Below, piece by piece: positions 1 through 8,627 of a stretch of DNA of 39,640 bases. The stretch is from a virus (taxonomy: Duplodnaviria; Heunggongvirae; Uroviricota; Caudoviricetes). Under the pieces are notes generated by a model that searched no databases, was not told the origin of the DNA, and saw nothing but the letters and a program-made list of their open reading frames with translations. Location of the stretch: IMG/VR virus record IMGVR_UViG_2563366929_000005. One strand, 5' to 3'. The translations under genes were made by a program, and so were the position numbers. Numbering within the stretch: the stretch's first letter is position 1; the number at the start of each line of letters is the position of its first letter.

Positions 1-1236
1 ATGGCGCTGTCTGATGCGTGGTTGCGTTCAGTCGTTGGAAAGGAACGTGATAAGGTTTTGGTTAAATCCGATCGTGATGGTCTGTCTGTCAGAGTATCAC
101 CGAAAGGTCGCGTAGTGTTCCAATATCGTTATCAATGGGCAGGGAAAGGTGAGCGCCTTGATATCGGAACTTACCCGGCAACTGGATTAAAAGAGGCCAG
201 AGAAGAAGTTATCCGTCTCCGTGGTGAACTCGAGTCAAACCGCAATCCACGATTAGTCAAGCAGGCTGAAAAACGAAAAGCTACTGAAGCCATGACGGTA
301 GAGTCTGTGATCCGTGCCTGGTATGAAGCATATTGTGTAAAAAATAAAAAAGGTTCTGAACAGATACTCCGCTCGTTTGAGCTGCACCTGTTCTCTAAAA
401 TCGGGAATATCCCTCACGATGCAGCTACATTGCATGATTGGTTAGAAGTCCTGGAGCCTCTTAGCACCAAGACTCCAGCAATAGTAGACCGATTGCTAAT
501 TAACGCAAAGCAGGCCCATGTCTGGGCGTATAAGAGAAAGCTCATTGAAACTCGCCCACTGTCGGATATCACGGGTAAAGATATGGATATCCGTAAAGGT
601 CAGAAAAAACGGTTTCTGACACATGATGAAATTAACATCCTTTATGCTGCGATCGATGGTTCTCGAATGGTTCCTAAATACCGAGCCTTCATTAAACTAT
701 TGCTGCATTTTGGTTGCCGTAGTTCAGAGCTAATTACTGCTAGGGTGGATGATTTTGATTTCATAAATAAGGTATGGACTGTACCACCAGAACGACATAA
801 GACTGGGGACATAACAGGCGAACCGCTAAAGCGGCCCATTATTGAACCGGTTGAAGAGCTTATAAAATACGCTATCTCTATGAACAACGGTTCCGATATG
901 CTTTTTACTAAGGAAGGAAGCAGGGAGCCAGTTGGTCGGACATCATTGCAGTCGCTGCCTTACAATTTAATGCAGTTCGCATGGCGACGTTTGGGGTATC
1001 AATTTCCTCATTGGTCTCTTCATGATTTGAGACGAACAGCACGAACAAACTTTTCTGATCTTACTGCTCCTCATATTGCTGAAATAATGCTCGGTCATAA
1101 ACTGCCAGGTGTATGGCAAGTTTATGATAAGAGCGATTATCTAGAAGAACAGCGTAAAGCTTACTGGGCATGGTGGGAGAGGGTTGAATCGATCGTTACT
1201 TGTACTGACTTAATCTCCAACGGACAGTTTGCGTAG
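1..1236 (+). CDS. int: Tyrosine integrase, P4-like (DUF4102-type N-terminus)
   Basis: 411-aa ORF. N-terminus (LSDAWLRS..DGLSVRVSPKGRVVFQYRY) is typical of P4-family integrases. C-terminus has HDLRRTARTN (HxxR) and a terminal Tyr region (GHKLPGVWQVYDKSDY). Confidence 0.95.
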   Translation: MALSDAWLRSVVGKERDKVLVKSDRDGLSVRVSPKGRVVFQYRYQWAGKGERLDIGTYPATGLKEAREEVIRLRGELESNRNPRLVKQAEKRKATEAMTVESVIRAWYEAYCVKNKKGSEQILRSFELHLFSKIGNIPHDAATLHDWLEVLEPLSTKTPAIVDRLLINAKQAHVWAYKRKLIETRPLSDITGKDMDIRKGQKKRFLTHDEINILYAAIDGSRMVPKYRAFIKLLLHFGCRSSELITARVDDFDFINKVWTVPPERHKTGDITGEPLKRPIIEPVEELIKYAISMNNGSDMLFTKEGSREPVGRTSLQSLPYNLMQFAWRRLGYQFPHWSLHDLRRTARTNFSDLTAPHIAEIMLGHKLPGVWQVYDKSDYLEEQRKAYWAWWERVESIVTCTDLISNGQFA

Positions 1237-1394
1237 CCAGAGCGTAATCATATCTGCCAGTCCGCTGCGGATACCTTGTGTACTGGGTTTTTAGCCAGAC
1301 TACGTTAACCGGTAGCTTCAGTATTTGGGGGGGCGGCAGGAGTTTGATGGTTTATTGGGTTACTGTGGGACTAAGGATGTAGGGATGCCAATCA

Positions 1395-2528
1395 ATGAAT
1401 TATGAAAAATATCATAGCACAAACAGAAGCAAGGGTTTGCGAACCTTCTGCTACTTAATTTATTATGTGCAGGTGATTTTTAATGTGATGAAGTGTTTTA
1501 TGACTCGCGGAAACTTTGATTTTATAAACTCTAACGTGGTTTTCTCAGAAGCCGATAAGTCATTGTGGATTGATCTCATTAACACCGATTGTATTTGGTA
1601 TGATATGATAATTAATCCTCCTGATGATATAAGAACAAATAAGATAATAAAGAACTATCTCAGAATTATGGAAAAATATACGAGGGAAAGCTGTGAAAAG
1701 AGATTTATTTATTTCTTAGGTTCAAGAAAAAAAGTAAGGTTTTCAACCAAGAAACAGCCTAGGTATAACCCATTCACAAAAAATATAGTATTCACTCTGT
1801 TGATTGGCAAAGAAGAGCGAAAGCTTCGGATAAAATATTCCTTTTGCACGTTTACGCAGAATGGGGTAGTGAAGGTAACTCCAAATGTTAGAGTAACTGA
1901 GAAGTTTCTCTACATTGAATATGAAAATGGCAATTTATGTGTGATGTCAGTTCATGACTTCGTAAACGGACATTATATTGATTTAGGAATTCATACAGAA
2001 GTGCATTACGTAGGATATACACGTCATCCGCATCGGCGCCCTGTTGATTTTATTCACCGTGGCTTATCAAAGATGCTGTATAGCGTTTCAAATGACGATA
2101 ATGATTTTTTTGTTTGTTTTAGTATATTTAATCCAAGGATTATATCTCTGAATAATAAATGTAATGTGGTCTTTAATATTTCAAATTCTCTACTGGATGA
2201 AATTGATGTTGATAATGAGGGGAGAATTATTGAAAACTGCTTAATACGTTACTTTGATCCTAAGCTTCAAGATGATGACAAGGAAAGTAAAAGGTCAGAT
2301 TTAAATAAAATGTTTATGGACCTGGTGGAAAATAAAAAAATTAAAAAAATATACGTTAATTTTCAATATGAAAGGAATAATGAGTATTTCTGCTTTTACT
2401 CTAAAGTTGTTCCGCCGAAATTTCATCATTTCTTTGTGTTGGATTTTTCTGATGGCAAGATAAATATTGATAGAGACCAGGATATGATGACTCAGATGGC
2501 ATTGTGTATGGGGTATTATAATTATTAA
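1395..2528 (+). CDS. AT-rich orphan protein with a central GIY-YIG-like nuclease motif (candidate defence or homing-type cargo)
   Basis: 377-aa ORF, visibly much lower GC than int or xis. Motif string GHY-x10-YVGYT-x4-RR-x5-H ... EGRIIENCLIRYFDPKLQ (aa about 192-292) resembles GIY-x10-11-YIG..R..H..E..N. The start codon is uncertain (Met1, Met32 or Met36). Confidence 0.65.
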   Translation: MNYEKYHSTNRSKGLRTFCYLIYYVQVIFNVMKCFMTRGNFDFINSNVVFSEADKSLWIDLINTDCIWYDMIINPPDDIRTNKIIKNYLRIMEKYTRESCEKRFIYFLGSRKKVRFSTKKQPRYNPFTKNIVFTLLIGKEERKLRIKYSFCTFTQNGVVKVTPNVRVTEKFLYIEYENGNLCVMSVHDFVNGHYIDLGIHTEVHYVGYTRHPHRRPVDFIHRGLSKMLYSVSNDDNDFFVCFSIFNPRIISLNNKCNVVFNISNSLLDEIDVDNEGRIIENCLIRYFDPKLQDDDKESKRSDLNKMFMDLVENKKIKKIYVNFQYERNNEYFCFYSKVVPPKFHHFFVLDFSDGKINIDRDQDMMTQMALCMGYYNY

Positions 2529-2737
2529 TATTTCGCTTGATACCAACTCAAAATCTTTTTTGTCGCATCCATTGTGGATTAATATTCAGAGGTAAGGGGT
2601 ATCTGCGGAATTTATATTTTGCAGGATGAGCATACAATACATGATATAACATCTGTTTTTGGCACAGAGCATATAGTCAGATTATGTTTAGTTCTGTGCC
2701 ATAGATGGATACTATCTCACCTCTTGGCTAACTCTCA

Positions 2738-2932
2738 TTACTCAATAATTCCAGCAAATCTGTATATTTTGCGTGATGCCCATTTATTTGGGCAGGATTT
2801 GATATCAGGATCTGGAAAATCAGGCCTGTATTTCTGGCCAGTTCTCCTGTTTACGCTGTTCCAGCGAAGAACAGTCGATACTGAAACGCCACAGAAGTCG
2901 GCGACTTGTTTAGTTGTCATTAAGTTGTTCAT
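2738..2932 (-). CDS. xis: Excisionase / AlpA-family HTH DNA-binding protein
   Basis: 64 aa. MTTKQVADFCGVSVSTVLRW is an AlpA/MerR-type HTH. It is the last gene of the leftward operon next to int, and its start abuts the stop of the upstream gene. Confidence 0.8.
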   Translation of the reverse strand: MNNLMTTKQVADFCGVSVSTVLRWNSVNRRTGQKYRPDFPDPDIKSCPNKWASRKIYRFAGIIE

Positions 2933-3552
2933 TACTTCACCTCCTGCGGCGGCTCCGGTAGCGGCATCCAGTGGGTTACTTTCGATGCCGGTTCTTCCCC
3001 ATCGTCAGTAACTGCCCACCATTTGTTTCTCGACCAATCGTAATACCCTTCGAAGGTATCGCACTCAGTCCAGCCGTAAGACTTACCCCAACACCAAACA
3101 TACTGTTTATCGTCCGGCATTCGCTCACTACAGCTTATCCAACCATCCGGAGTTACCGGAGAGTTGCCCGACAGCTCGTTCAACTTGTAAGACTGGCTTA
3201 CAGGTTCGGCACCATGAAGCATGGCGGCGCGGCAGGCGTTCCAGCCTTCATCAAAGCCGACTATGCCATTATTTAAAGACGGACGAACATCTGGCACCAT
3301 CGGCACTGGCTTGGCTATATATAGCGGCTGAACATACCAGCCCTTTGATAACCAACTGTCAGCAATGTTTTTACTCCGTGTTATTGCCGGAATACCTAAG
3401 CCATTGTCTGAATGCAGCCATGCCACCGGTTCTGCTTTCAGCGAGGCTAACGCTATTTCATAAGCTCGGTGCTCAATATTGTCTCGCACGTCCAAGCTGC
3501 CTATGCGCTCTTTGATTTCTTTAATCAGTTCTTTGTCGGTGAAAGTGGTCAT
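2932..3552 (-). CDS. DUF551-domain early protein
   Basis: 206 aa. C-terminal WISCSERMPDDKQ...VTHWMPLPEPP is the characteristic DUF551 signature. The gene is translationally coupled to its neighbours. Confidence 0.8.
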   Translation of the reverse strand: MTTFTDKELIKEIKERIGSLDVRDNIEHRAYEIALASLKAEPVAWLHSDNGLGIPAITRSKNIADSWLSKGWYVQPLYIAKPVPMVPDVRPSLNNGIVGFDEGWNACRAAMLHGAEPVSQSYKLNELSGNSPVTPDGWISCSERMPDDKQYVWCWGKSYGWTECDTFEGYYDWSRNKWWAVTDDGEEPASKVTHWMPLPEPPQEVK

Positions 3553-3553
3553 C

Positions 3554-3883
3554 TCACTCTCCTTTGATGCGAATGCCAGCGACGCGTAGTGCGTGTTCTA
3601 AGTCAATCAGGCAAAGCCAACTGCCATTTTCTTTAGGTATCATGACATGCCGCTTATTAGCATTTATTGGGTGCCCATATCGAAGGTCGTAGCGAGTCGG
3701 TAATTGAACTTCCCTCGCTTCCAGTTCTGTAATGCGTTTGTTTTTAGCTTCTAGTTCATCCAGCAGCGCCAGCACAACCTGCGGTGTGACTTTCATACGA
3801 AATGCCAGCAATTTTTGTGGTGTGGCTACTATTTTTATTGCTTCTGCCGCCTCACGCAGTACCTGATAGTCAATCTTGTTCAC
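3554..3883 (-). CDS. Hypothetical early protein (Ead/Ea22-like coiled-coil)
   Basis: 109-aa ORF with a 4-nt overlap to the upstream gene. It has a coiled-coil segment (LLDELEAKNKRITELEARE). Confidence 0.65.
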   Translation of the reverse strand: MNKIDYQVLREAAEAIKIVATPQKLLAFRMKVTPQVVLALLDELEAKNKRITELEAREVQLPTRYDLRYGHPINANKRHVMIPKENGSWLCLIDLEHALRVAGIRIKGE

Positions 3884-4119
3884 TGGTTGCCTCCTTTACG
3901 GATCTGCGCTGCGATGCACGAAAAAAAAGACTCTCGCGTATGACTGTTAAGAGCTGGCGCGAACGCCGCGTTAAGAACGGCAGCATCACAGCCGTCATCG
4001 ATATAGAGCGCAATTTTTTTCTCCAGGCGTGCTTTGGCTTCCTGCAACTGCATACCCCGGCACGCACGCGGGATATACTCAGCAATTTGAGCGATAGATT
4101 TTTCGTTCTGTTTAAACAT
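3880..4119 (-). CDS. Hypothetical early protein
   Basis: 79-aa ORF. It is chosen over the alternative-frame ORF 3870-4232 because it fits the chain of start/stop overlaps in the operon and has an ordinary composition. Confidence 0.55.
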   Translation of the reverse strand: MFKQNEKSIAQIAEYIPRACRGMQLQEAKARLEKKIALYIDDGCDAAVLNAAFAPALNSHTRESFFSCIAAQIRKGGNQ

Positions 4120-4315
4120 GCTTCACCTCGATAGGCTTGATGGTATCGATCAGCAGTCGGCGGCGAGTATTTTCTGCAAAGTGGCGGCGTCCGTTTTCTT
4201 TGTGGTAAAACTCGTTTTTTCCGACGACCCACATCCGCTTTGTCTGGTGCAGTTTTTTTACCTGCGGACCGTCTCGGGTGATAACAATTCCTGTATGAGT
4301 TTTTATCACGCTCAT
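4112..4315 (-). CDS. Hypothetical early protein
   Basis: 67-aa ORF with coupled overlaps on both sides (4312-4315 and 4112-4119). Confidence 0.55.
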   Translation of the reverse strand: MSVIKTHTGIVITRDGPQVKKLHQTKRMWVVGKNEFYHKENGRRHFAENTRRRLLIDTIKPIEVKHV

Positions 4316-4674
4316 TTCTTATTCTCCGGTGCTTTCGGCATTACTGCCCAGTGAGTGATATTGACGTTTTCAAGGTCCCCGACCTGAAATGTCCACTGCC
4401 ATTCTCCGGTTTCTTTTTGTCCCCAGGTGTACCAGAGAGAACGCCAGCCAATTAGCCAGCCTTCTCCGTTAGCATCAAATAACAGAACACTTTCATTTGC
4501 TGGCGGCAGTTCAGCTGACACTGGTATTATTTTGTTTTCCAGTGCCGCACATTTAGCTTCAAGCGCATCGAATTTACGTACCAGGTACTCAGCATTTGTT
4601 TCGTTCACTTTCAGATCTCGCGGTACACATTTCCCGCGAAGAAACCCTTCCATTTCGAAAACATTCATGCGCAT
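4312..4674 (-). CDS. YfdS-like protein with a DUF551-like C-terminus
   Basis: 120 aa. C-terminus reads NITHWAVMPKAPE. Size and position match the yfdS slot of a CPS-53-type yfdPQRS block. Confidence 0.7.
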   Translation of the reverse strand: MRMNVFEMEGFLRGKCVPRDLKVNETNAEYLVRKFDALEAKCAALENKIIPVSAELPPANESVLLFDANGEGWLIGWRSLWYTWGQKETGEWQWTFQVGDLENVNITHWAVMPKAPENKK

Positions 4675-5201
4675 TTGCGTAACTCCGATAACTCGTTAAA
4701 ACGTTCCATAAACATCCCGTAGGCATGGCCCGGTGCCAGTGGAATCACGTTGAACATCTCTGTTGCCGGGATGCCTTCCAGTACAGGCCAGAAAGAGCCA
4801 TCATCAAGCCCGAGATCGCGGCGTTCGGTTGCCAGCATGATGAGATCGGCATATTTCACAGGCGTGCTCATAACCGGGGGTAACCCGTATTTCTCACGGA
4901 TTACGGCATCTATTTTTTCTTCCATCCGTTTATAGTCAGGAAGAAGGCGTTTCAGTGGAGCGGGGATGTCCTGGCAATACGCTTCTGTTGCATCATGCAT
5001 TAACGCTTCAAAAGCAAATTCCTGCGGCACCAGCTGGCTGCAAAGCACCGCATGTTGGGCGACGCTGTAGAAGTGAGAAAGATGACCGGCAAAGCGACAG
5101 ATATTTGAAAGGGAAACCGCGATATCGTTAATAACGATGTCATCTTTATTTATCTTGTCATAATAAAAATGCTTCCCGGAAAAAGTTTTAATAAATGACA
5201 T
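4665..5201 (-). CDS. yfdR: HD-domain 5'-deoxynucleotidase (YfdR-like)
   Basis: 178 aa counted from MSFIKTF, with a GGAGA Shine-Dalgarno upstream. HD-superfamily metal motifs are present (..SVAQHAV.. and ..ALMHDATEAY..). The longer track ORF start (5228) is rejected. Confidence 0.8.
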   Translation of the reverse strand: MSFIKTFSGKHFYYDKINKDDIVINDIAVSLSNICRFAGHLSHFYSVAQHAVLCSQLVPQEFAFEALMHDATEAYCQDIPAPLKRLLPDYKRMEEKIDAVIREKYGLPPVMSTPVKYADLIMLATERRDLGLDDGSFWPVLEGIPATEMFNVIPLAPGHAYGMFMERFNELSELRKCA

Positions 5202-5328
5202 TTTGTTCTCCACGTATATGCGCTGCACCGCGCTGAATTTGGGTAAAAGGAAGCCCTCACCATCCGGTGATTATTGAGTTAATTACGTTTCCATAAATGC
5301 CCCCGCAGGGGCATTTGCAGTAATGAAA

Positions 5329-6153
5329 TCAGGCGGTGAAAGTACCAATAAAGGTTTCTACTTTGCTGTCTTTGAATTTCTCAACAAGCAGATCACGAAA
5401 TTCGTTAGCCATATCTTCCTGCACCGCTTCCAGCTGAATAATGCGCAGAACCAGTACAGGACGATCGCCAGTGATAATGCTGAGGCGTAATTTAAACGGA
5501 CGTTCTTTCAGACCTTCAAACGGAACGCATTTAAATTCAAATGCCACTGGCATAATGTCTTTGGTCTTCGCTTCGACAGATTCCATCAGGGAGCGTTTGC
5601 CGCTGAAGTCATTATCTTCAAAATCAGCGGTCTGGTTTGCTTCAATCGTGATTTTACGGATTGCCGCAGCCGCTTTTGTTGCCTGAATGGCGTCACCATT
5701 AGCATCAAAGCCCACAAGGTAGTCGGCCCAGTCTTCAATCCATTCTGCCAGTGATTTCTGGGAGTTACGCTCGCCGTTAACAGACAACAGGGCAGAGAAC
5801 GGTGCTGTCTTTTTCAGTTTGAGAGTGGCGGTGTTATCTGCGTGACCTGGTTCATCAATAGTACCCAGGTTAAGCACACTGACGGCACGCATATTATCAG
5901 CATCGATAAAGCAGCGGGTGCCTTCATCTGCAAGATCTTTAGAATAACGGGTAAAGTCATCGATGCTGGCAGTGGAAAGCGCACCACGGAAACGGAAGCG
6001 ATTTAAATTAAATTTTTCCAGATCATGAATGCGGAAATTCTCAGGCAATGCCACAGCATCGGCACCAATCTTACTGATAATTTCATTAACACCCTGAGCA
6101 GAAATAAGGGCATGGATTTGATTAATTGCGGTTGCGTCTAAGTTCTGAGACAT
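5329..6153 (-). CDS. yfdQ: YfdQ-family (DUF2303) protein
   Basis: 274-aa ORF. Size, sequence character and position between the YfdP-like and YfdR-like genes match the family. Confidence 0.8.
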
Positions 6154-6629: not shown

Positions 6630-6763
6630 ACAAAACAGAGAAGAACACCTGCGGTGGCAGCCGCCCGGATGGATTGGGTTATGAGCCCGTCGTCCGGTGA
6701 TGCTCTTCTCTGTTTTGTAAAAAGAGCGGTACCAGCCGGAAGCAAGTGTACAAACTGGTACCG
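6630..6763 (-). promoter_or_regulatory. Two large RNA stem-loops in the leftward-operon leader (candidate processive-antitermination or leader RNA)
   Basis: Perfect 15-bp inverted repeat ACAAAACAGAGAAGA (6630-6644) / TCTTCTCTGTTTTGT (6704-6718). Perfect 9-bp inverted repeat CGGTACCAG (6727-6735) / CTGGTACCG (6755-6763). A boxA-like CGCTCTTTTTAC (minus strand, 6717-6728) lies between them. Confidence 0.4.
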
Positions 6764-7052
6764 CCAAAGCAGTGGCTGTTGTGGTGACCGGTGCTGATCT
6801 CCGGCTTGCGGTTATTTCAGACTCTCACGGGCGTTTAATTGCCCCGCCGAACAGCTCTTTTCCGCAATAGCTGCAATGTCTTTCGCGCATCAGCCTGCGC
6901 ATTCACCACAACGCTAAGGATTCTCTCTGGTTGAAAATACTTAGCTGTTATGTGCCTGCTTTTAGCCACATCAGGCGAGGTGGACCTGGTTATTCCCCAA
7001 CAACAAGGATTTGGTTATTATGTAACCCTCCCCAACAACGATAAGGATTTAT

Positions 7053-7142
7053 ATGGATCTATGTGTAGATAAGTATGAGGAGAGGCATGTGCCGTTAAGA
7101 CAAAAGCCTCCAGTTCCTCCAAAACCACCCAAGGAAAACTGA
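7053..7142 (+). CDS. Proline-rich micro-ORF A (29 aa): MDLCVDKYEERHVPLRQKPPVPPKPPKEN
   Basis: ATG preceded by TAAGGATTTAT. The stop lies 7 nt before the 2-TM gene. It shares an H-V-P..PPxPP(K)PP core with micro-ORFs B and C. It is below the ORF-track cutoff. Confidence 0.4.
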   Translation: MDLCVDKYEERHVPLRQKPPVPPKPPKEN

Positions 7143-7149
7143 GACTAAT

Positions 7150-7644
7150 ATGACCAGAGACGATTATAAATTTTATGTTCACTACTCTTATGTATTGGAG
7201 AAGATGAATTACACGTTGTTAACTCGCATTGATAAATTAATAACGTTGATGTTAATCGTTCTCGGTTTTTCAGTTTTCGCCCCGTACAGTAATTTATTTA
7301 TTTTCGGTTTGTTTGTTGCCGTACTTTCGGTTCTTCAGTTGGTCTATCAGTTTGGCCAAGAGGCTGGAATGTCTAAAGAGCAAGCGAGGCATTACAAAAG
7401 ACTGCTGATTGAGTCTGATACCCTTCCTGAAGATCAGTTGCAAGCTAGGTATTTAAAAATCCAAGATACTGATAGTAATCCATGGAAATCACTTGAACGA
7501 GCGGCTTTCATTCGGGCCTGTATTTTTGCTGGTGTTCCAACTAAGTACGATTTAACAACCAAAGAAAAATTTATAGCTTGGTGTGCGGGAGATCTACCTC
7601 TAGAGAATGAACTAACGGATATTAATGATGACCAACAAGCATAA
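7150..7644 (+). CDS. Two-TM helical-hairpin membrane protein (SLATT-like topology), candidate superinfection-exclusion or abortive-infection effector
   Basis: 164 aa. TM1 is LITLMLIVLGFSVFA and TM2 is LFIFGLFVAVLSVLQLVY, separated by a 4-aa loop and followed by an amphipathic soluble tail. The gene is AT-rich, on the opposite strand to the early-left operon, and has its own terminator downstream. Confidence 0.7.
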   Translation: MTRDDYKFYVHYSYVLEKMNYTLLTRIDKLITLMLIVLGFSVFAPYSNLFIFGLFVAVLSVLQLVYQFGQEAGMSKEQARHYKRLLIESDTLPEDQLQARYLKIQDTDSNPWKSLERAAFIRACIFAGVPTKYDLTTKEKFIAWCAGDLPLENELTDINDDQQA

Positions 7645-7699
7645 TCCAGTTCACGGACATGTACCTCCGAAGCCGAAACCACCGAAACCGAAGAAATGA
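7625..7699 (+). CDS. Proline-rich micro-ORF B (24 aa): MMTNKHNPVHGHVPPKPKPPKPKK
   Basis: ATG preceded by CGGATATTA. It overlaps the last 20 nt of the 2-TM gene in the +1 frame. The core is HVPPKPKPPKP. Confidence 0.35.
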   Translation: MMTNKHNPVHGHVPPKPKPPKPKK

Positions 7700-7718
7700 G
7701 ACATAATAGGATTGGATA

Positions 7719-7787
7719 ATGAGTCGACCAATAGAGCCTTTTCATATTCCACCTCGTCCCAGGCCACCAGATCCAGGCCCAAAGTGA
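7719..7787 (+). CDS. Proline-rich micro-ORF C (22 aa): MSRPIEPFHIPPRPRPPDPGPK
   Basis: ATG preceded by TAGGATTGGATA (an AGGA Shine-Dalgarno with 7-nt spacing). The core is HIPPRPRPPDP. The terminator hairpin starts 25 nt downstream. Confidence 0.4.
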   Translation: MSRPIEPFHIPPRPRPPDPGPK

Positions 7788-7801
7788 GGGTTACTGATTT
7801 T

Positions 7802-7810
7802 TAAAGAGCG
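7802..7810 (-). promoter_or_regulatory. boxA-like element (CGCTCTTTA) of a candidate nutL
   Basis: The minus strand reads CGCTCTTTAAAAATCAGTAACCCTCACTTTGGGCC about 100 nt downstream of the putative pL. Compare lambda nutR, recalled as CGCTCTTAAAAATTAAGCCCTGAAGAAGGGC. The boxB-like hairpin is weak (3 bp). Confidence 0.4.
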
Positions 7811-7811
7811 A

Positions 7812-7834
7812 AGCGTCCGGTAGGGCGCTTTTTT
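7812..7834 (+). terminator. Intrinsic terminator of the plus-strand accessory mini-operon
   Basis: AGCGTCC-GGTA-GGGCGCT hairpin (one G.U pair) followed by TTTTTT. Confidence 0.65.
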
Positions 7835-7917
7835 GGTACTAACGAATCATCCTGGACTTCATATGCCCCAGGCGGCTACTTCGTGGGCGTCCTGCCTGTT
7901 CGTTATCTTTGATATAA

Positions 7918-7946
7918 AATCTAACTTAACTTAGTTTTAATGGCAA
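7918..7946 (-). promoter_or_regulatory. Putative pL promoter with an overlapping OL operator
   Basis: The minus strand reads TTGCCA-17 nt-TAGATT. The spacer contains ACTAAGTTAAGTTAGA, a 12/16 match to the OR palindrome ACTAAGTAATCTTAGT. Confidence 0.5.
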
Positions 7947-7981
7947 GAGAAAACACCAAACTTTTCTTAGTTCGGTGTTTT
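7945..7981 (-). terminator. Hairpin downstream of the repressor gene (probable cI terminator)
   Basis: AAAACACC (7950-7957) pairs with GGTGTTTT (7974-7981). On the minus strand the stem is followed by a T-rich CTCTT. Confidence 0.5.
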
Positions 7982-8000
7982 GGTTAGAGAAAAGGGGGGG

Positions 8001-8627
8001 CTAGAGTTCGTATTGAACTCCTTTGACTACACCAATGATGAGGCAATTACCATTGATCGGGATGTTGGGGTACCGGGGATTTAATGGCACTAAAAACTTT
8101 TGAGGGCCATCGATAACTAATTTTTTTACTGTGGCTTCGTTTGTTCCATCAAGTCTAGCGATGACTATTTTTCCATGCCGGGGTTCTGCATCAGGATCTA
8201 CAATCACTGTTGCGCCTTCTGGTATTGTTGGGAGGCCGTTAGGGTTAGTCATGGAGTCGCCTTTAACCTCCAATGCAAATGAGTTATCACCAATCTTTAA
8301 TGATGTATCTACCCACTTGTCTACTTCACTAAACACTTCTGCTGTCCTGCACTCAGTAAACTGCCCAGCCTGAACCCACGAGATTACAGGAACTCTGCGC
8401 ATGTTTGTGACGAGTTTGCCTTCAAACTCCGCACCATAAAGAATGTAATCTATTGACGTATTGAAGAACTTCGCTAATTTTGAAAGTGCTTCCCCACCAG
8501 GGACATTGATGTCTTTCTCCCAGTACCCCACAGCAACGTCACTTACTCCACAAAATTTACCCAATTCTTTCTGGGACGTTCTGGTAACTCTTCTCAGAGC
8601 TTTTATACGCTGACCAACCGTTTCCAT
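8001..8627 (-). CDS. cI: CI-like prophage repressor (HTH_XRE N-terminus plus S24 LexA-type autopeptidase C-terminus)
   Basis: 208 aa. The HTH is QKELGKFCGVSDVAVGYWEKD. There is an Ala-Gly cleavage region (VQAGQF), a Ser motif (GDSM) and a Lys motif (TVKKL). The gene is divergent from the cro-like gene. Confidence 0.9.
   Translation of the reverse strand: METVGQRIKALRRVTRTSQKELGKFCGVSDVAVGYWEKDINVPGGEALSKLAKFFNTSIDYILYGAEFEGKLVTNMRRVPVISWVQAGQFTECRTAEVFSEVDKWVDTSLKIGDNSFALEVKGDSMTNPNGLPTIPEGATVIVDPDAEPRHGKIVIARLDGTNEATVKKLVIDGPQKFLVPLNPRYPNIPINGNCLIIGVVKGVQYEL

What the first reader, a model, noticed from the sequence alone, without database searches (positions are those of the whole stretch)
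7053..7787. Three paralogous cationic proline-rich micro-ORFs flanking the 2-TM gene
Three short ORFs lie below the ORF-track cutoff. A (7053-7142) is MDLCVDKYEERHVPLRQKPPVPPKPPKEN. B (7625-7699) is MMTNKHNPVHGHVPPKPKPPKPKK. C (7719-7787) is MSRPIEPFHIPPRPRPPDPGPK. All end in an H-[VI]-P ... PP[KR/V]P[KR/P]PP core. The three cores use different codons (A cct cca gtt cct cca aaa cca ccc; B cct ccg aag ccg aaa cca ccg; C cca cct cgt ccc agg cca cca). This points to conservation at the peptide level rather than a simple DNA repeat. Each ORF is preceded by a related GGAT(T)-plus-AT-rich spacer before its ATG. PPxP and PPP strings are classic EF-P-dependent ribosome stall sites. The PRPRPP/PKPKPP cores also resemble the ribosome-tunnel-binding cores of eukaryotic proline-rich antimicrobial peptides (oncocin and apidaecin types) and TonB-like spacers. 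Three hypotheses follow: stall-based leader or sensor peptides controlling the membrane protein, intracellular ribosome-targeting toxic peptides, or partners or antidotes of the 2-TM protein. I do not know of a described phage module with this composition.
Basis: partly seen in the sequence, partly recalled or inferred. Interest (0 to 1): 0.85.

Follow-up and report, generated by a model that had tools for sequence, protein, structure and literature searches.

The report
Proline-rich microgenes around prophage SLATT gene
Three tiny proline-rich genes flanking a small membrane-protein gene in an E. coli prophage are real, conserved genes that travel with that protein in every related phage examined, forming an undescribed cassette whose peptides resemble animal ribosome-blocking antimicrobial peptides.

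Summary
ORFs A (7053-7142), B (7625-7699) and C (7719-7787) exist as described. Each has an ATG and a Shine-Dalgarno-like site.

In 67 related loci the 2-TM protein is only 55-100% identical. All but one of those with readable upstream flank keep an upstream A-type micro-ORF, and every locus keeps 1-3 downstream ones. The shared core is H-[VI]-P-P-[KR]-P-R-P-P. Synonymous sites are saturated (pS 0.75-0.83) while pN is 0.20-0.34.

Ten distant 2-TM lineages (23-37% identity) keep only the upstream micro-ORF.

In 2.9 million viral contigs, 39 of 41 matches to the motif lie beside this gene.

The 2-TM protein is a divergent SLATT-domain protein, a predicted pore-forming effector of defence systems.

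The cassette is self-contained cargo between a conserved leader and a terminator in a swappable prophage slot next to the repressor gene.

Best reading (about 0.45): the peptides are translated cytoplasmic partners that control the SLATT effector in a toxin/antitoxin-like or abortive-infection module. This is inferred, not shown.

Rivals are cis-acting stall or coupling leaders (0.2) and intracellular ribosome-targeting peptides like proline-rich antimicrobial peptides, PrAMPs (0.13).

No family, defence-system model or paper that I searched describes the module.

The parts
6954..7052 (+). Conserved non-coding leader of the cargo slot: GCCTGC-TTTTAGCCACATCAGGC...TATTCCCCAACAACAAGGATT...CCCCAACAAC...AAGGA. 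Its second CCCCAACAAC..AGGA unit supplies the SD of ORF A. It belongs to the phage slot, not to the cassette.
   Evidence: It is nearly invariant across loci whose 2-TM proteins are 55-70% identical. It is present with a different cargo in SfIV and other phages. It has no Rfam match and is no more structured than shuffled sequence.
7053..7142 (+). Micro-ORF A, 29 aa, upstream proline-rich microprotein (..YEERH-V-P-LRQ-K-PP-V-PP-K-PP..). It ends 7 nt before the 2-TM ATG.
   Evidence: ATG with AGGA 5 nt upstream. It has 31 unique peptide variants in 67 loci, with pN 0.34 and pS 0.83. It is present upstream of distant 2-TM homologues at 23-37% identity. Its stop overlaps or adjoins the 2-TM SD.
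7150..7644 (+). 164-aa inner-membrane protein with two TM helices, N and C termini cytoplasmic. It is a divergent SLATT-domain (SLATT_4-like) protein, phrog_6315.
   Evidence: PHROG hit 9e-64. AF2 gives a helical hairpin plus 4 helices, pLDDT 76. Top BFVD structural matches are SLATT proteins, prob 0.96-0.99 but weak E-values. Of 123 distant family members, 47 hit NCBIfam SLATT_4 (best 1.2e-5) and 15 hit SLATT_1. The family has 498 clusters at 50% identity.
7625..7699 (+). Micro-ORF B, 24 aa (23 from the second ATG), cationic, core H-V-P-P-K-P-K-P-P. It overlaps the 3' end of the 2-TM gene in another frame.
   Evidence: It stays intact where the 2-TM stop is lost and the 2-TM frame reads through (L018 and P0002). 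In Pectobacterium a related downstream-type peptide (core HIPPRPRPP, closer to the window's ORF C), at the position B holds here, is fused in frame to the 2-TM C-terminus.
7719..7787 (+). Micro-ORF C, 22 aa, core P-I-E-P-F-H-I-P-P-R-P-R-P-P-D-P.
   Evidence: ATG with AGGA 7 nt upstream. The 'PIEPFH' subtype is conserved in loci with 55-64% identical 2-TM proteins, with pN 0.12 and pS 0.67.
7810..7836 (+). Intrinsic terminator closing the cassette: a 9-bp stem GAAGCGUCC/GGGCGCUUU (one G-U pair in the stem and a closing G-U pair), loop GGUA, then a T run.
   Evidence: Seen in the sequence and in the MFE fold. The same hairpin closes the slot in SfIV and in Pectobacterium loci.

Best explanation
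The region is a self-contained prophage cargo operon: leader, micro-ORF A, a SLATT-like 2-TM inner-membrane protein, micro-ORFs B and C, then a terminator.

All three micro-ORFs are genuine translated genes. They encode 21-30-residue, polyproline-II-type cytoplasmic microproteins with the core H-phi-P-P-[KR]-P-R-P-P.

These peptides are the cognate partners of the SLATT protein. A is made in obligatory translational coupling with it, because A's stop lies on or next to its SD. The downstream cationic paralogues add further copies.

I propose that the peptides bind the cytoplasmic face of the SLATT protein and hold this predicted pore-forming effector in check, as an antitoxin-like brake supplied in excess. 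When peptide supply or binding is disturbed, for example by an infecting phage, the SLATT protein permeabilises the membrane. The outcome would be abortive infection or exclusion that benefits the lysogen.

Shown:
- the genes are real;
- selection acts at the peptide level;
- the peptides are linked to the SLATT-like gene wherever both were looked for;
- the layout gives translational coupling;
- the cassette has cargo (moron) status.

Inferred:
- physical binding of peptide to the SLATT protein;
- the direction of control (brake rather than activator);
- toxicity of the SLATT protein;
- a defence role.
For: 1. Every micro-ORF has ATG plus an AGGA-type SD.
2. Selection is purifying at the peptide level: A type pN 0.34 / pS 0.83, downstream cores pN 0.20 / pS 0.75.
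3. 67 related loci carry an A-type micro-ORF. Every related locus with downstream flank has 1-3 downstream ones. Ten distant 2-TM lineages (23-37% identity, in four different prophage slots) keep an upstream Pro-rich micro-ORF ending 4-20 nt before the ATG.
4. In IMG/VR, 39 of 41 matches to the degenerate motif lie beside the SLATT-like gene. In metagenomes, all 17 low-GC micro-ORF matches do too.
5. A natural in-frame fusion of the peptide to the 2-TM C-terminus is present in at least 4 Pectobacterium assemblies. Peptide-peptide fusions and an internal motif duplication show the motif is modular and its valency varies.
6. A's UGA lies inside ..TGAGGTG-N4-ATG, with an 8-nt gap, in 18 of 35 unique sequences.
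7. There are 2-4 motif copies per SLATT gene, and the small gene sits upstream. That is the usual antitoxin position and dosage (my inference).
8. SLATT proteins are predicted pore-forming toxins and are required effectors in DRT10 defence. The family bridges to SLATT_4 and SLATT_1 models.
9. The cassette lies in the repressor-proximal hotspot that holds rexAB and bstA in other phages. It is swapped for other cargo between the same leader and terminator in SfIV.
Against: - There is no direct evidence of binding. In the AF2 model of the natural fusion the Pro-rich tail has pLDDT 46-61, so the model says nothing about docking.
- No expression data exist, and no sigma-70 promoter was recognised upstream on the + strand.
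- Fusion is rare: 1 of 249 family proteins held. The fused gene keeps an internal SD and ATG, so it is weak Rosetta-stone evidence.
- Pro-rich peptides tend to resist proteolysis, which does not suit a labile antitoxin.
- PADLOC models give no hit, so a defence role rests on context and on the SLATT analogy only.
- The window protein itself does not reach any SLATT model threshold.
Confidence: 0.45

Rival explanations
1. Cis-acting translational control. The micro-ORFs matter through the act of being translated. Pro-rich nascent chains slow or arrest the ribosome, dependent on EF-P or through interaction with the exit tunnel. For A, a ribosome paused near or at its stop covers the SD of the SLATT gene and so gates translation of a toxic membrane protein.
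For: - A is universal, lies upstream, and ends 4-20 nt before the 2-TM ATG. Its UGA is embedded in the SD in most loci.
- All three window ORFs carry XPPX motifs.
- The conserved residues lie within 13-16 residues of the C-terminus, so they are inside the exit tunnel at termination, as in known arrest peptides.
- Arg/Pro-rich sequences have a general propensity to interact with the tunnel (PMC13233979).
Against: - Three A-type variants, including Fels-2, have no PP at all.
- B and C lie downstream of the only long gene and are followed by a terminator, so they have nothing to regulate in cis.
- There is no excess or alternative RNA structure at the A/2-TM junction (z 0.16) or around B-C (z 0.18).
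- The distance from the last PP to A's stop varies from 2 to 7 codons.
- The variable copy number (1-3) of independent downstream paralogues is easier to explain by a function of the peptide product.
Confidence: 0.2
2. Intracellular PrAMP-like effectors. B, C and perhaps A are phage-encoded analogues of apidaecin or oncocin. Made in the cytoplasm, they bind the ribosomal exit tunnel (or DnaK) and shut down translation. The SLATT protein would be a co-effector, a release route or an immunity partner.
For: - The downstream consensus phi-P-P-[KR]-P-R-P-P-x-P contains the P-x-P-R-P-P-x-P string of apidaecins (YIPQPRPPHPRL; Bombus YIPPPRPPHPRL). Window C contains the PRPRPP of oncocin and metalnikowin, preceded by an aromatic residue.
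- Peptide length (21-30 aa) and net charge (+1 to +6) are in the PrAMP range.
- Several variants end ..PRPPAPKG, close to ..PRPPHPRL.
Against: - The type II hallmark, a penultimate Arg that contacts the release factor, is not conserved. The penultimate residue is P, K or G in 32 of 46 variants and R in 2.
- The distance from core to C-terminus varies.
- The universal partner, the A type, is neutral to acidic.
- The peptides were not found without the SLATT-like gene, and one is fused to it. That is unexpected for a free ribosome ligand.
- Constitutive expression in a lysogen would poison the host.
- Low-complexity Pro/Arg similarity can be convergent.
Confidence: 0.13
3. Lysogenic-conversion mimicry. 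The cassette protects the lysogen against host-derived proline-rich antimicrobial peptides. The membrane protein might interfere with the SbmA-type import route, and the mimic peptides might compete for the intracellular target.
For: The only support is the PrAMP-like sequence and the occurrence in animal-, insect- and plant-associated Enterobacterales such as Salmonella, Klebsiella, Sodalis and Pectobacterium.
Against: Nothing links the cassette to SbmA. SLATT proteins are known as effectors of conflict systems, not as transporter inhibitors. Distant members carry only a degenerate upstream peptide that is not PrAMP-like.
Confidence: 0.04
4. The micro-ORFs are chance open frames in non-coding spacers, or by-products of a conserved DNA or RNA element.
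For: The ORFs are very short and unannotated in RefSeq. The antisense frame of Pro/Lys/Arg-rich sequence is also often open, in 34 of 46 cases.
Against: - DNA is saturated at synonymous sites while the peptide is kept.
- ATG and SD are present throughout.
- Only the Pro frame is always open.
- No RNA family or structure signal was found.
- The association holds across very divergent loci and four different genomic slots.
Confidence: 0.02

Closest known systems
SLATT-domain effectors of nucleotide- or RT-based defence systems (CBASS-type SMODS/SLOG operons; DRT10/UG17 RT-ncRNA-SLATT)
   Same: A small 2-TM helical-hairpin protein with flanking cytoplasmic helices, carried on mobile elements and prophages. 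It is a predicted membrane-permeabilising executioner that needs a separate control component.
   Different: No nucleotide cyclase, SLOG, TIR or reverse transcriptase is present. The only partners are 21-30-aa proline-rich micro-ORFs. The window protein itself is below every curated SLATT threshold.
Proline-rich antimicrobial peptides of insects and mammals (apidaecin, oncocin, metalnikowin, Bac7)
   Same: Similar size, cationic Pro/Arg(Lys) composition, and the shared strings PRPRPP and P-x-P-R-P-P-x-P preceded by an aromatic/hydrophobic pair.
   Different: Those are secreted animal peptides cut from precursors and imported into bacteria. These are leaderless cytoplasmic ORFs of a prophage, tied to a membrane protein, with no conserved penultimate Arg and a variable C-terminus. 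Ribosome binding is untested.
Polyproline or arrest leader ORFs (Salmonella mgtP/mgtL-type proline-codon leaders; TnaC, SecM, ApdA/RAPP arrest peptides). Named from my own knowledge and PMC12992588 and PMC7897499, listed.
   Same: A short upstream ORF with prolines, conserved at the peptide level near its C-terminus, ending on the ribosome-binding site of the next gene.
   Different: Paralogues also sit downstream of the gene. Some upstream variants lack PP. No attenuator-like RNA structure is present.
Two-gene toxin-antitoxin and abortive-infection cargo next to the prophage repressor (lambda rexAB, BTP1 bstA)
   Same: The cassette occupies the repressor-proximal mosaic hotspot, is self-contained with its own terminator, and pairs a membrane component with a small partner.
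   Different: It has no sequence relationship to these systems. It is transcribed convergently to cI. The partner is a set of microproteins of under 30 aa, not a folded protein.

Membership tests
[quoted passage not shown] | Two adjacent TM helices forming a hairpin, flanked by cytoplasmic helices | tested here: met
   AF2 model: helices 3-42 and 47-88 form a hairpin, followed by 4 helices, pLDDT 76. The hydrophobic segments and positive-inside charges are read from the sequence.
[quoted passage not shown] | Significant match to a curated SLATT profile | tested here: inconclusive
   The window protein has no Pfam or NCBIfam hit. Close relatives hit only SLATT_4/5 at E of about 0.06. By transitivity the test is met: 47 of 123 family members found with the family profile hit NCBIfam SLATT_4 (best 1.2e-5), 15 hit SLATT_1 (4.5e-5) and 3 hit SLATT_fungal. 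None hit the Pfam SLATT models at E<=0.01.
[quoted passage not shown] | Structural similarity to SLATT proteins | tested here: inconclusive
[quoted passage not shown] | Operon partner that makes a nucleotide or DNA signal (SMODS, SLOG, TIR, RT) | tested here: not met
   Between leader and terminator there are only the micro-ORFs.
Proline-rich antimicrobial peptides, type II (apidaecin, drosocin) | Penultimate Arg and a defined C-terminus that trap the release factor | tested here: not met
   The requirement is stated in PMC13233979. Among 46 variants the penultimate residue is P 14, K 11, G 7 and R 2. The distance from His to the C-terminus ranges from 11 to 43 residues, mostly 13-16.
Proline-rich antimicrobial peptides, type I (oncocin, Bac7) | PRP-repeat core with an N-terminal aromatic/hydrophobic pair that enters the peptidyl-transferase centre | tested here: inconclusive
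   The strings F-H-[VI]-P-P-R-P-R-P-P and Y-L-P-R-P-R-P-P are similar. The resemblance is at sequence level only.
Proline-rich antimicrobial peptides (any type) | Binding in the ribosomal exit tunnel and inhibition of translation | not testable with these tools
   This needs in vitro translation, toeprinting or cryo-EM.
Proline-rich antimicrobial peptides (any type) | Secreted host-defence peptide of an animal, processed from a precursor | tested here: not met
   These are leaderless 21-30-codon ORFs with their own SD in prophages of Enterobacterales.
EF-P-dependent polyproline stall or leader peptide | Consecutive prolines (XPPX) in every member | tested here: not met
   Present in window A, B and C and in all 46 downstream variants. 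Absent from 3 of 31 A-type variants.
EF-P-dependent polyproline stall or leader peptide | Position upstream of the regulated gene, with coupling to its ribosome-binding site or to an RNA switch | tested here: inconclusive
   For A: the stop lies in or next to the 2-TM SD with an 8-nt gap in 18 of 35 sequences, but there is no excess structure. For B and C: not met, because a terminator follows.
Type II toxin-antitoxin-like pair | Small upstream gene translationally coupled to a toxic product | tested here: inconclusive
   The layout fits. Toxicity and neutralisation cannot be tested here. The small gene has no DNA-binding domain.
Known anti-phage defence systems (PADLOC-DB v2) | Match of the component protein to a system model | tested here: not met
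   The 2-TM protein has no hit at E<=1.

The most novel reading that the evidence does not exclude
A temperate phage encodes its own apidaecin/oncocin-like peptides. They are made inside the cell and bind the ribosomal exit tunnel, in trans or on their own ribosome at termination. Together with a SLATT pore they shut down an infected cell. This would be the first PrAMP-type translation inhibitors of viral or bacterial origin, and a case of convergence, or shared logic, between animal innate immunity and prophage-encoded immunity.
Probability: 0.12. Interest if true: 0.92.

Novelty: new variant of a known kind. Interest (0 to 1): 0.72.

Why it matters
Genes of 21-30 codons are invisible to annotation pipelines. 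RefSeq annotates none of the three here.

This case gives a family of such genes with unusually clear comparative proof of function and an invariant partner in every locus examined. That makes it a tractable model for how microproteins control a membrane effector.

SLATT proteins are widespread but mechanistically obscure executioners of bacterial immune systems. A version whose only regulators are short polyproline peptides would be the simplest SLATT system known. It could show what gates the pore.

The peptides also carry the core strings of animal ribosome-targeting antimicrobial peptides. Even a modest chance that they touch the ribosome, DnaK or EF-P-dependent translation is worth a direct test.

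The module occurs in prophages of E. coli, Salmonella, Klebsiella, Enterobacter, Pectobacterium and others, in about 1% of complete E. coli genomes. It sits in a conserved leader/terminator slot that exchanges cargo.

Tried and rejected
- **Peptide family searches.** Pfam, PHROGs and PADLOC scans of the peptides and of the 2-TM protein gave no hit for the peptides. Only phrog_6315 (unknown function) matched the protein.
- **Peptides in the 5.8-billion protein index.** The query was too short, and a 44-aa concatenate found no candidate. This is uninformative, because P0013 shares words with the query yet was not returned.
- **The search for related loci with the peptide alignment.** I replaced it with a degenerate DNA pattern (after a first pattern with too few fixed bases).
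- **The same pattern on metagenomes.** It is swamped by chance matches in GC-rich DNA: 107 of 124 matches. The bare pattern is therefore not specific outside low-GC phage DNA.
- **AF2 of the natural 2-TM-peptide fusion.** The tail has low confidence, so nothing can be said about docking.
- **RNA explanations.** No Rfam family matched over 6700-8100. Neither the leader, the A/2-TM junction nor the B-C region folds better than shuffled sequence. A riboswitch or attenuator reading is rejected.
- **Programmed frameshift joining B to the 2-TM protein.** Considered and dropped. The relative frame of the first downstream ORF differs between loci, and no slippery site is evident.
- **Opposite-strand genes.** These are annotated in Fels-2 and in a Yersinia phage. 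I rejected them as the conserved feature, because the plus-strand protein is the one conserved across loci.
- **Promoter.** The sigma-70 scan found none on the + strand. How the cassette is transcribed stays open.
Full report
**1. The observation**

- A, 7053-7142, 29 aa.
- B, 7625-7699, 24 aa.
- C, 7719-7787, 22 aa.
- All are on the + strand around a 164-aa gene at 7150-7644.

B starts 20 nt before the stop of that gene, in another frame. Each ORF has an ATG preceded by AGGA or GGA at 5-8 nt.

In the six-frame translation of the whole window, H[VILMA]PP.P.PP occurs only at B and C. A looser version occurs only at A, B and C.

'Cationic' is right for B (+6) and C (+2). It is not right for the A type as a family, whose median net charge is -1.

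**2. Context**

The window is an E. coli prophage of the SfV/SfIV/CPS-53 kind.
- The identical 1-kb region occurs in 51 of 5,426 complete E. coli genomes. Its two ends alone occur in about 1,900.
- RefSeq annotates only the 164-aa gene, as hypothetical.
- The cassette lies between the leftward early genes (yfdP, yfdQ, yfdR) and the LexA-family cI repressor (8001-8627, minus strand). It is transcribed towards cI.
- In SfIV and other phages only the first ~150 nt and last ~100 nt of the region are conserved.
- In SfIV the same ~100-nt leader and the same terminator hairpin enclose an unrelated gene and no proline-rich ORF.

So the slot (leader plus terminator) belongs to the phage backbone, and A, the 2-TM gene, B and C are exchangeable cargo. 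The repressor-proximal region of lambdoid phages is a known mosaic hotspot. It holds rexAB in lambda and bstA in BTP1 (PMC8585504).

**3. Are the micro-ORFs real genes?**

I collected 3 genome loci and 64 IMG/VR loci encoding relatives of the 164-aa protein. Identity is 55-100%, with one at 32%.

Upstream micro-ORF:
- 67 loci carry an A-type micro-ORF, including the four distant phage loci of section 4. Every related locus with readable upstream flank has one except L065.
- There are 31 distinct peptides. The pattern is ..YEE[KR]-H-[MVL]-P-x(2-4)-[KR]-P-x-x-P-P-K...
- The exception, L065, has only a 14-codon remnant, MPPEPKQGYQDAKR.

Downstream micro-ORFs:
- Every locus has one to three downstream micro-ORFs: two in 40 loci, one in 22, three in 5. 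There are 46 distinct peptides.
- Anchored on the His, the nine core columns read: H 37/41; V or I 33/41; P 41/41; P 34/41; K or R 31/41; P 41/41; R 37/41; P 41/41; P 31/41.

Evidence of selection on the peptide:
- Nearly all micro-ORFs have ATG plus an AGGA-type SD.
- Synonymous sites are saturated while the peptides are kept. For the A type, pN is 0.34 against pS 0.83. For downstream cores, pN is 0.20 against pS 0.75. Within the two orthologous subtypes the values are 0.12/0.67 and 0.14/0.74.
- Codon position 3 is the most variable.
- Only the Pro frame is open in all unique sequences. The other five frames are open in 0-74%.
- A-type and downstream-type profiles align on the His-anchored core (hhalign 90%, E 1.4e-6).

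**4. How tight is the link to the 2-TM gene?**

- More distant relatives of the 2-TM protein (23-37% identity) all carry an upstream micro-ORF of 26-64 codons. It has a Pro-rich C-terminal half, often H-[LV]-x-P or H-L-P-P, and ends 4-20 nt before the 2-TM start. None has downstream copies.
- These relatives are in Fels-2, a Yersinia P2-like phage, Providencia and Proteus phages, phage EKP1 and Phytobacter, Sodalis glossinidius, a Mu-like Salmonella prophage, Salinicola, and two metagenomic contigs.
- The modules sit in at least four different prophage slots: beside cI, between Q and the holin, in the P2/186-type early region, and in a Mu-like element. The pair 'Pro-rich micro-ORF + 2-TM gene' therefore moves as a unit.
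- Searching in the other direction, a degenerate DNA pattern for H-[VIM]-P-P-x-P-x-P-P-x-P found 41 stretches in 2.9 million viral contigs. Of these, 39 lie next to a relative of the 2-TM gene. The other 2 are chance matches in long GC-rich frames.
- In general metagenomes the bare pattern is not specific. 107 of 124 matches are mostly chance hits in DNA of 55-78% GC. All 17 low-GC micro-ORF matches have the 2-TM gene 500-650 nt upstream on the same strand.

**5. Layout details that bear on mechanism**

- In 18 of 35 unique sequences the gap between A's stop and the 2-TM ATG is exactly 8 nt. The junction reads ..ac-TGA-GGTG-nnnn-ATG. A's stop codon is thus part of the SD (GAGGUG) of the 2-TM gene. 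That is a classical translational-coupling arrangement.
- In the window the junction is aacTGAgactaatATG.
- The motif is modular. It is duplicated inside some A-type ORFs (HLPPKQMPQKPHLPPKQKPP). Downstream peptides are fused to each other in L004, L038, L052 and L060.
- In Pectobacterium the downstream peptide is fused in frame to the C-terminus of the 2-TM protein (P0013..AGDLPTEKESKMAKPPVDGHIPPRPRPPAPPKAQN). The identical 180-aa protein occurs in at least four assemblies. The internal SD and ATG are retained.
- Such fusion is rare, 1 of 249 family proteins held.
- Where the 2-TM stop is lost (L018, P0002), the 2-TM frame reads on into a non-Pro frame while ORF B stays intact.
- Three A-type variants, including the Fels-2 one, contain no consecutive prolines. 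Only the alternating P-x-P pattern remains.
- There is no excess RNA structure at the A/2-TM junction or across B-C, apart from the terminator.

**6. The 2-TM protein**

- It matches phrog_6315 (unknown function, 9e-64) and nothing in Pfam or PADLOC.
- AF2 (pLDDT 76) gives a long helical hairpin carrying the two hydrophobic segments, followed by four helices. From the charge distribution, both ends are cytoplasmic.
- The best BFVD structural matches are SLATT-domain proteins (probability 0.96-0.99, TM about 0.5), though with weak E-values. PDB searches were uninformative.
- A family profile finds 498 clusters among 1.84 billion representatives. All are single-domain proteins of about 150 aa.
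- Of 123 of these, 47 hit NCBIfam SLATT_4 (best 1.2e-5), 15 hit SLATT_1 and 3 hit SLATT_fungal. None hits the Pfam models.
- I therefore call it a divergent SLATT_4-like protein. Membership holds by transitivity and fold, but not by any curated threshold for the window protein itself.
- SLATT proteins are predicted pore-forming toxins. One is a genetically required effector of the DRT10 defence system (bioRxiv 10.64898/2026.04.29.721553).
- Here there is no cyclase, SLOG, TIR or reverse transcriptase.

**7. Mechanism: what I commit to**

Shown:
- The three ORFs are conserved coding genes.
- Selection acts on the peptide.
- The peptides accompany this SLATT-like gene in every locus examined, and the motif was not found in a comparable micro-ORF without it.
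- A is laid out for translational coupling with it.
- The unit is prophage cargo.

Inferred (confidence about 0.45):
- The peptides are cytoplasmic polyproline-II ligands of the SLATT protein and control it.
- Most probably they act as an antitoxin-like brake. The small gene is upstream, there are 2-4 motif copies per effector gene, and tethering to the effector's cytoplasmic C-terminus is tolerated.
- The module would serve abortive infection or exclusion in the lysogen.
- Because most of the peptides contain XPPX, their supply would also depend on EF-P and on ongoing translation. That could be how a disturbance is sensed.
- The direction of control and the trigger are guesses.

**8. Rivals**

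Cis-acting stall or coupling leader (0.2):
- It fits A's position and the SD overlap.
- It does not explain downstream paralogues that precede only a terminator, A variants without PP, or the absence of any RNA switch.

PrAMP-like intracellular ribosome or DnaK ligands (0.13):
- The resemblance is real. Compare phi-P-P-K-P-R-P-P-x-P and HIPPRPRPPDP with apidaecins YIPQPRPPHPRL and YIPPPRPPHPRL, Api137 YIPRPRPPHPRL, oncocin YLPRPRPPR and metalnikowin YRPRPRPP (sequences from PMC11678341).
- Arg/Pro-rich peptides have a general propensity for the exit tunnel (PMC13233979).
- Against it, the penultimate Arg that defines type II action is not conserved, C-termini vary, the universal A type is not cationic, and the peptides were not found free of the SLATT gene.

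Protection against host PrAMPs (0.04) and chance ORFs (0.02) are minor.

**9. Novelty**

- No Pfam, PHROG, NCBIfam or PADLOC model covers the peptides.
- RefSeq does not annotate them.
- Full-text searches on SLATT, proline-rich peptides, prophage small proteins and PrAMPs found no description of such a module.
- PrAMPs are described as encoded by mammals and insects.

I rate it a new variant of a known kind: a SLATT-effector cargo module with an unprecedented microprotein partner family. There is a minority chance of something categorically new, namely phage-encoded PrAMP-like inhibitors.

Noticed in passing
window 6954-7052 (+), and the equivalent stretch in L002 (SfIV) 3053-3153 and in L003-L066: A ~100-nt non-coding leader is far better conserved than the cargo it precedes. 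It is nearly invariant between loci whose 2-TM proteins are 55-70% identical, and it is also present in front of unrelated cargo in SfIV, Kati, PhiR29 and others. It contains a direct repeat TCCCCAACAAC(N0-4)AGGA x2. The second GGA is the SD of the first cargo gene. In L019 and L044 both copies change together (CAACAAC to CAACAGTC / CAATAGTC). The first unit reads ACAAGGAU, like a CsrA site, and the 5' part (TGCTTTTAG) is boxA-like; both readings come from memory and are untested. It has no Rfam hit, is no more structured than shuffled sequence, and has no recognisable sigma-70 promoter.
   Followed up: partly
window 7810-7836 and 7918-7990: The cassette's terminator hairpin is conserved as the right-hand border of the slot in SfIV and in Pectobacterium prophages. 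Between it and the end of cI there is a leftward promoter-like site (7946->7918, TTGCCA-17-TAGATT) and an inverted repeat AAACACC..GGTGTTT (about 7954-7983) that looks like the cI terminator. If that promoter is the early-left promoter, its transcript would run antisense through the whole cassette.
   Followed up: no
L070 (Fels-2, NC_010463) 2414-3140 and L071 (Yersinia phage vB_YenM_42.18) 2297-2962: In both deposited records the SLATT-like gene and its upstream micro-ORF are not annotated. ORFs on the opposite strand are called over the same DNA instead (STM2733.1 and STM2735; a 221-aa hypothetical protein). The plus-strand protein is the one conserved across phages, so these look like misannotations.
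   Followed up: partly
L018 622-1191 and protein P0002 (Enterobacter cloacae): In these close relatives the stop codon of the 2-TM gene is lost. The annotated protein runs on for 22-25 residues (..ESGSRTCSSEAETTETKELSGK) across ORF B in a different frame, while ORF B itself stays intact. This is an overlapping dual-coding stretch.
   Followed up: partly
L073 (phage EKP1, OM284015) 1-5369: The phage deposited as an Elizabethkingia phage carries a lambdoid late region (Q antiterminator, class II holin, lysozyme, Rz) and a SLATT-like module. The module's 2-TM protein and upstream micro-ORF are almost identical to those of a Phytobacter diazotrophicus prophage (L119). The stated host may be worth checking.
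   Followed up: no
family-wide (alignments A1 and A7): 21 of 28 close family members give weak hits (best E 0.0034) to TIGR04402, 'mobilome CxxCx(11)CxxC protein'. That hints at a related mobile-element family in which a zinc ribbon is fused to a similar 2-TM region, at the position where this family has a separate proline-rich micro-ORF.
   Followed up: no
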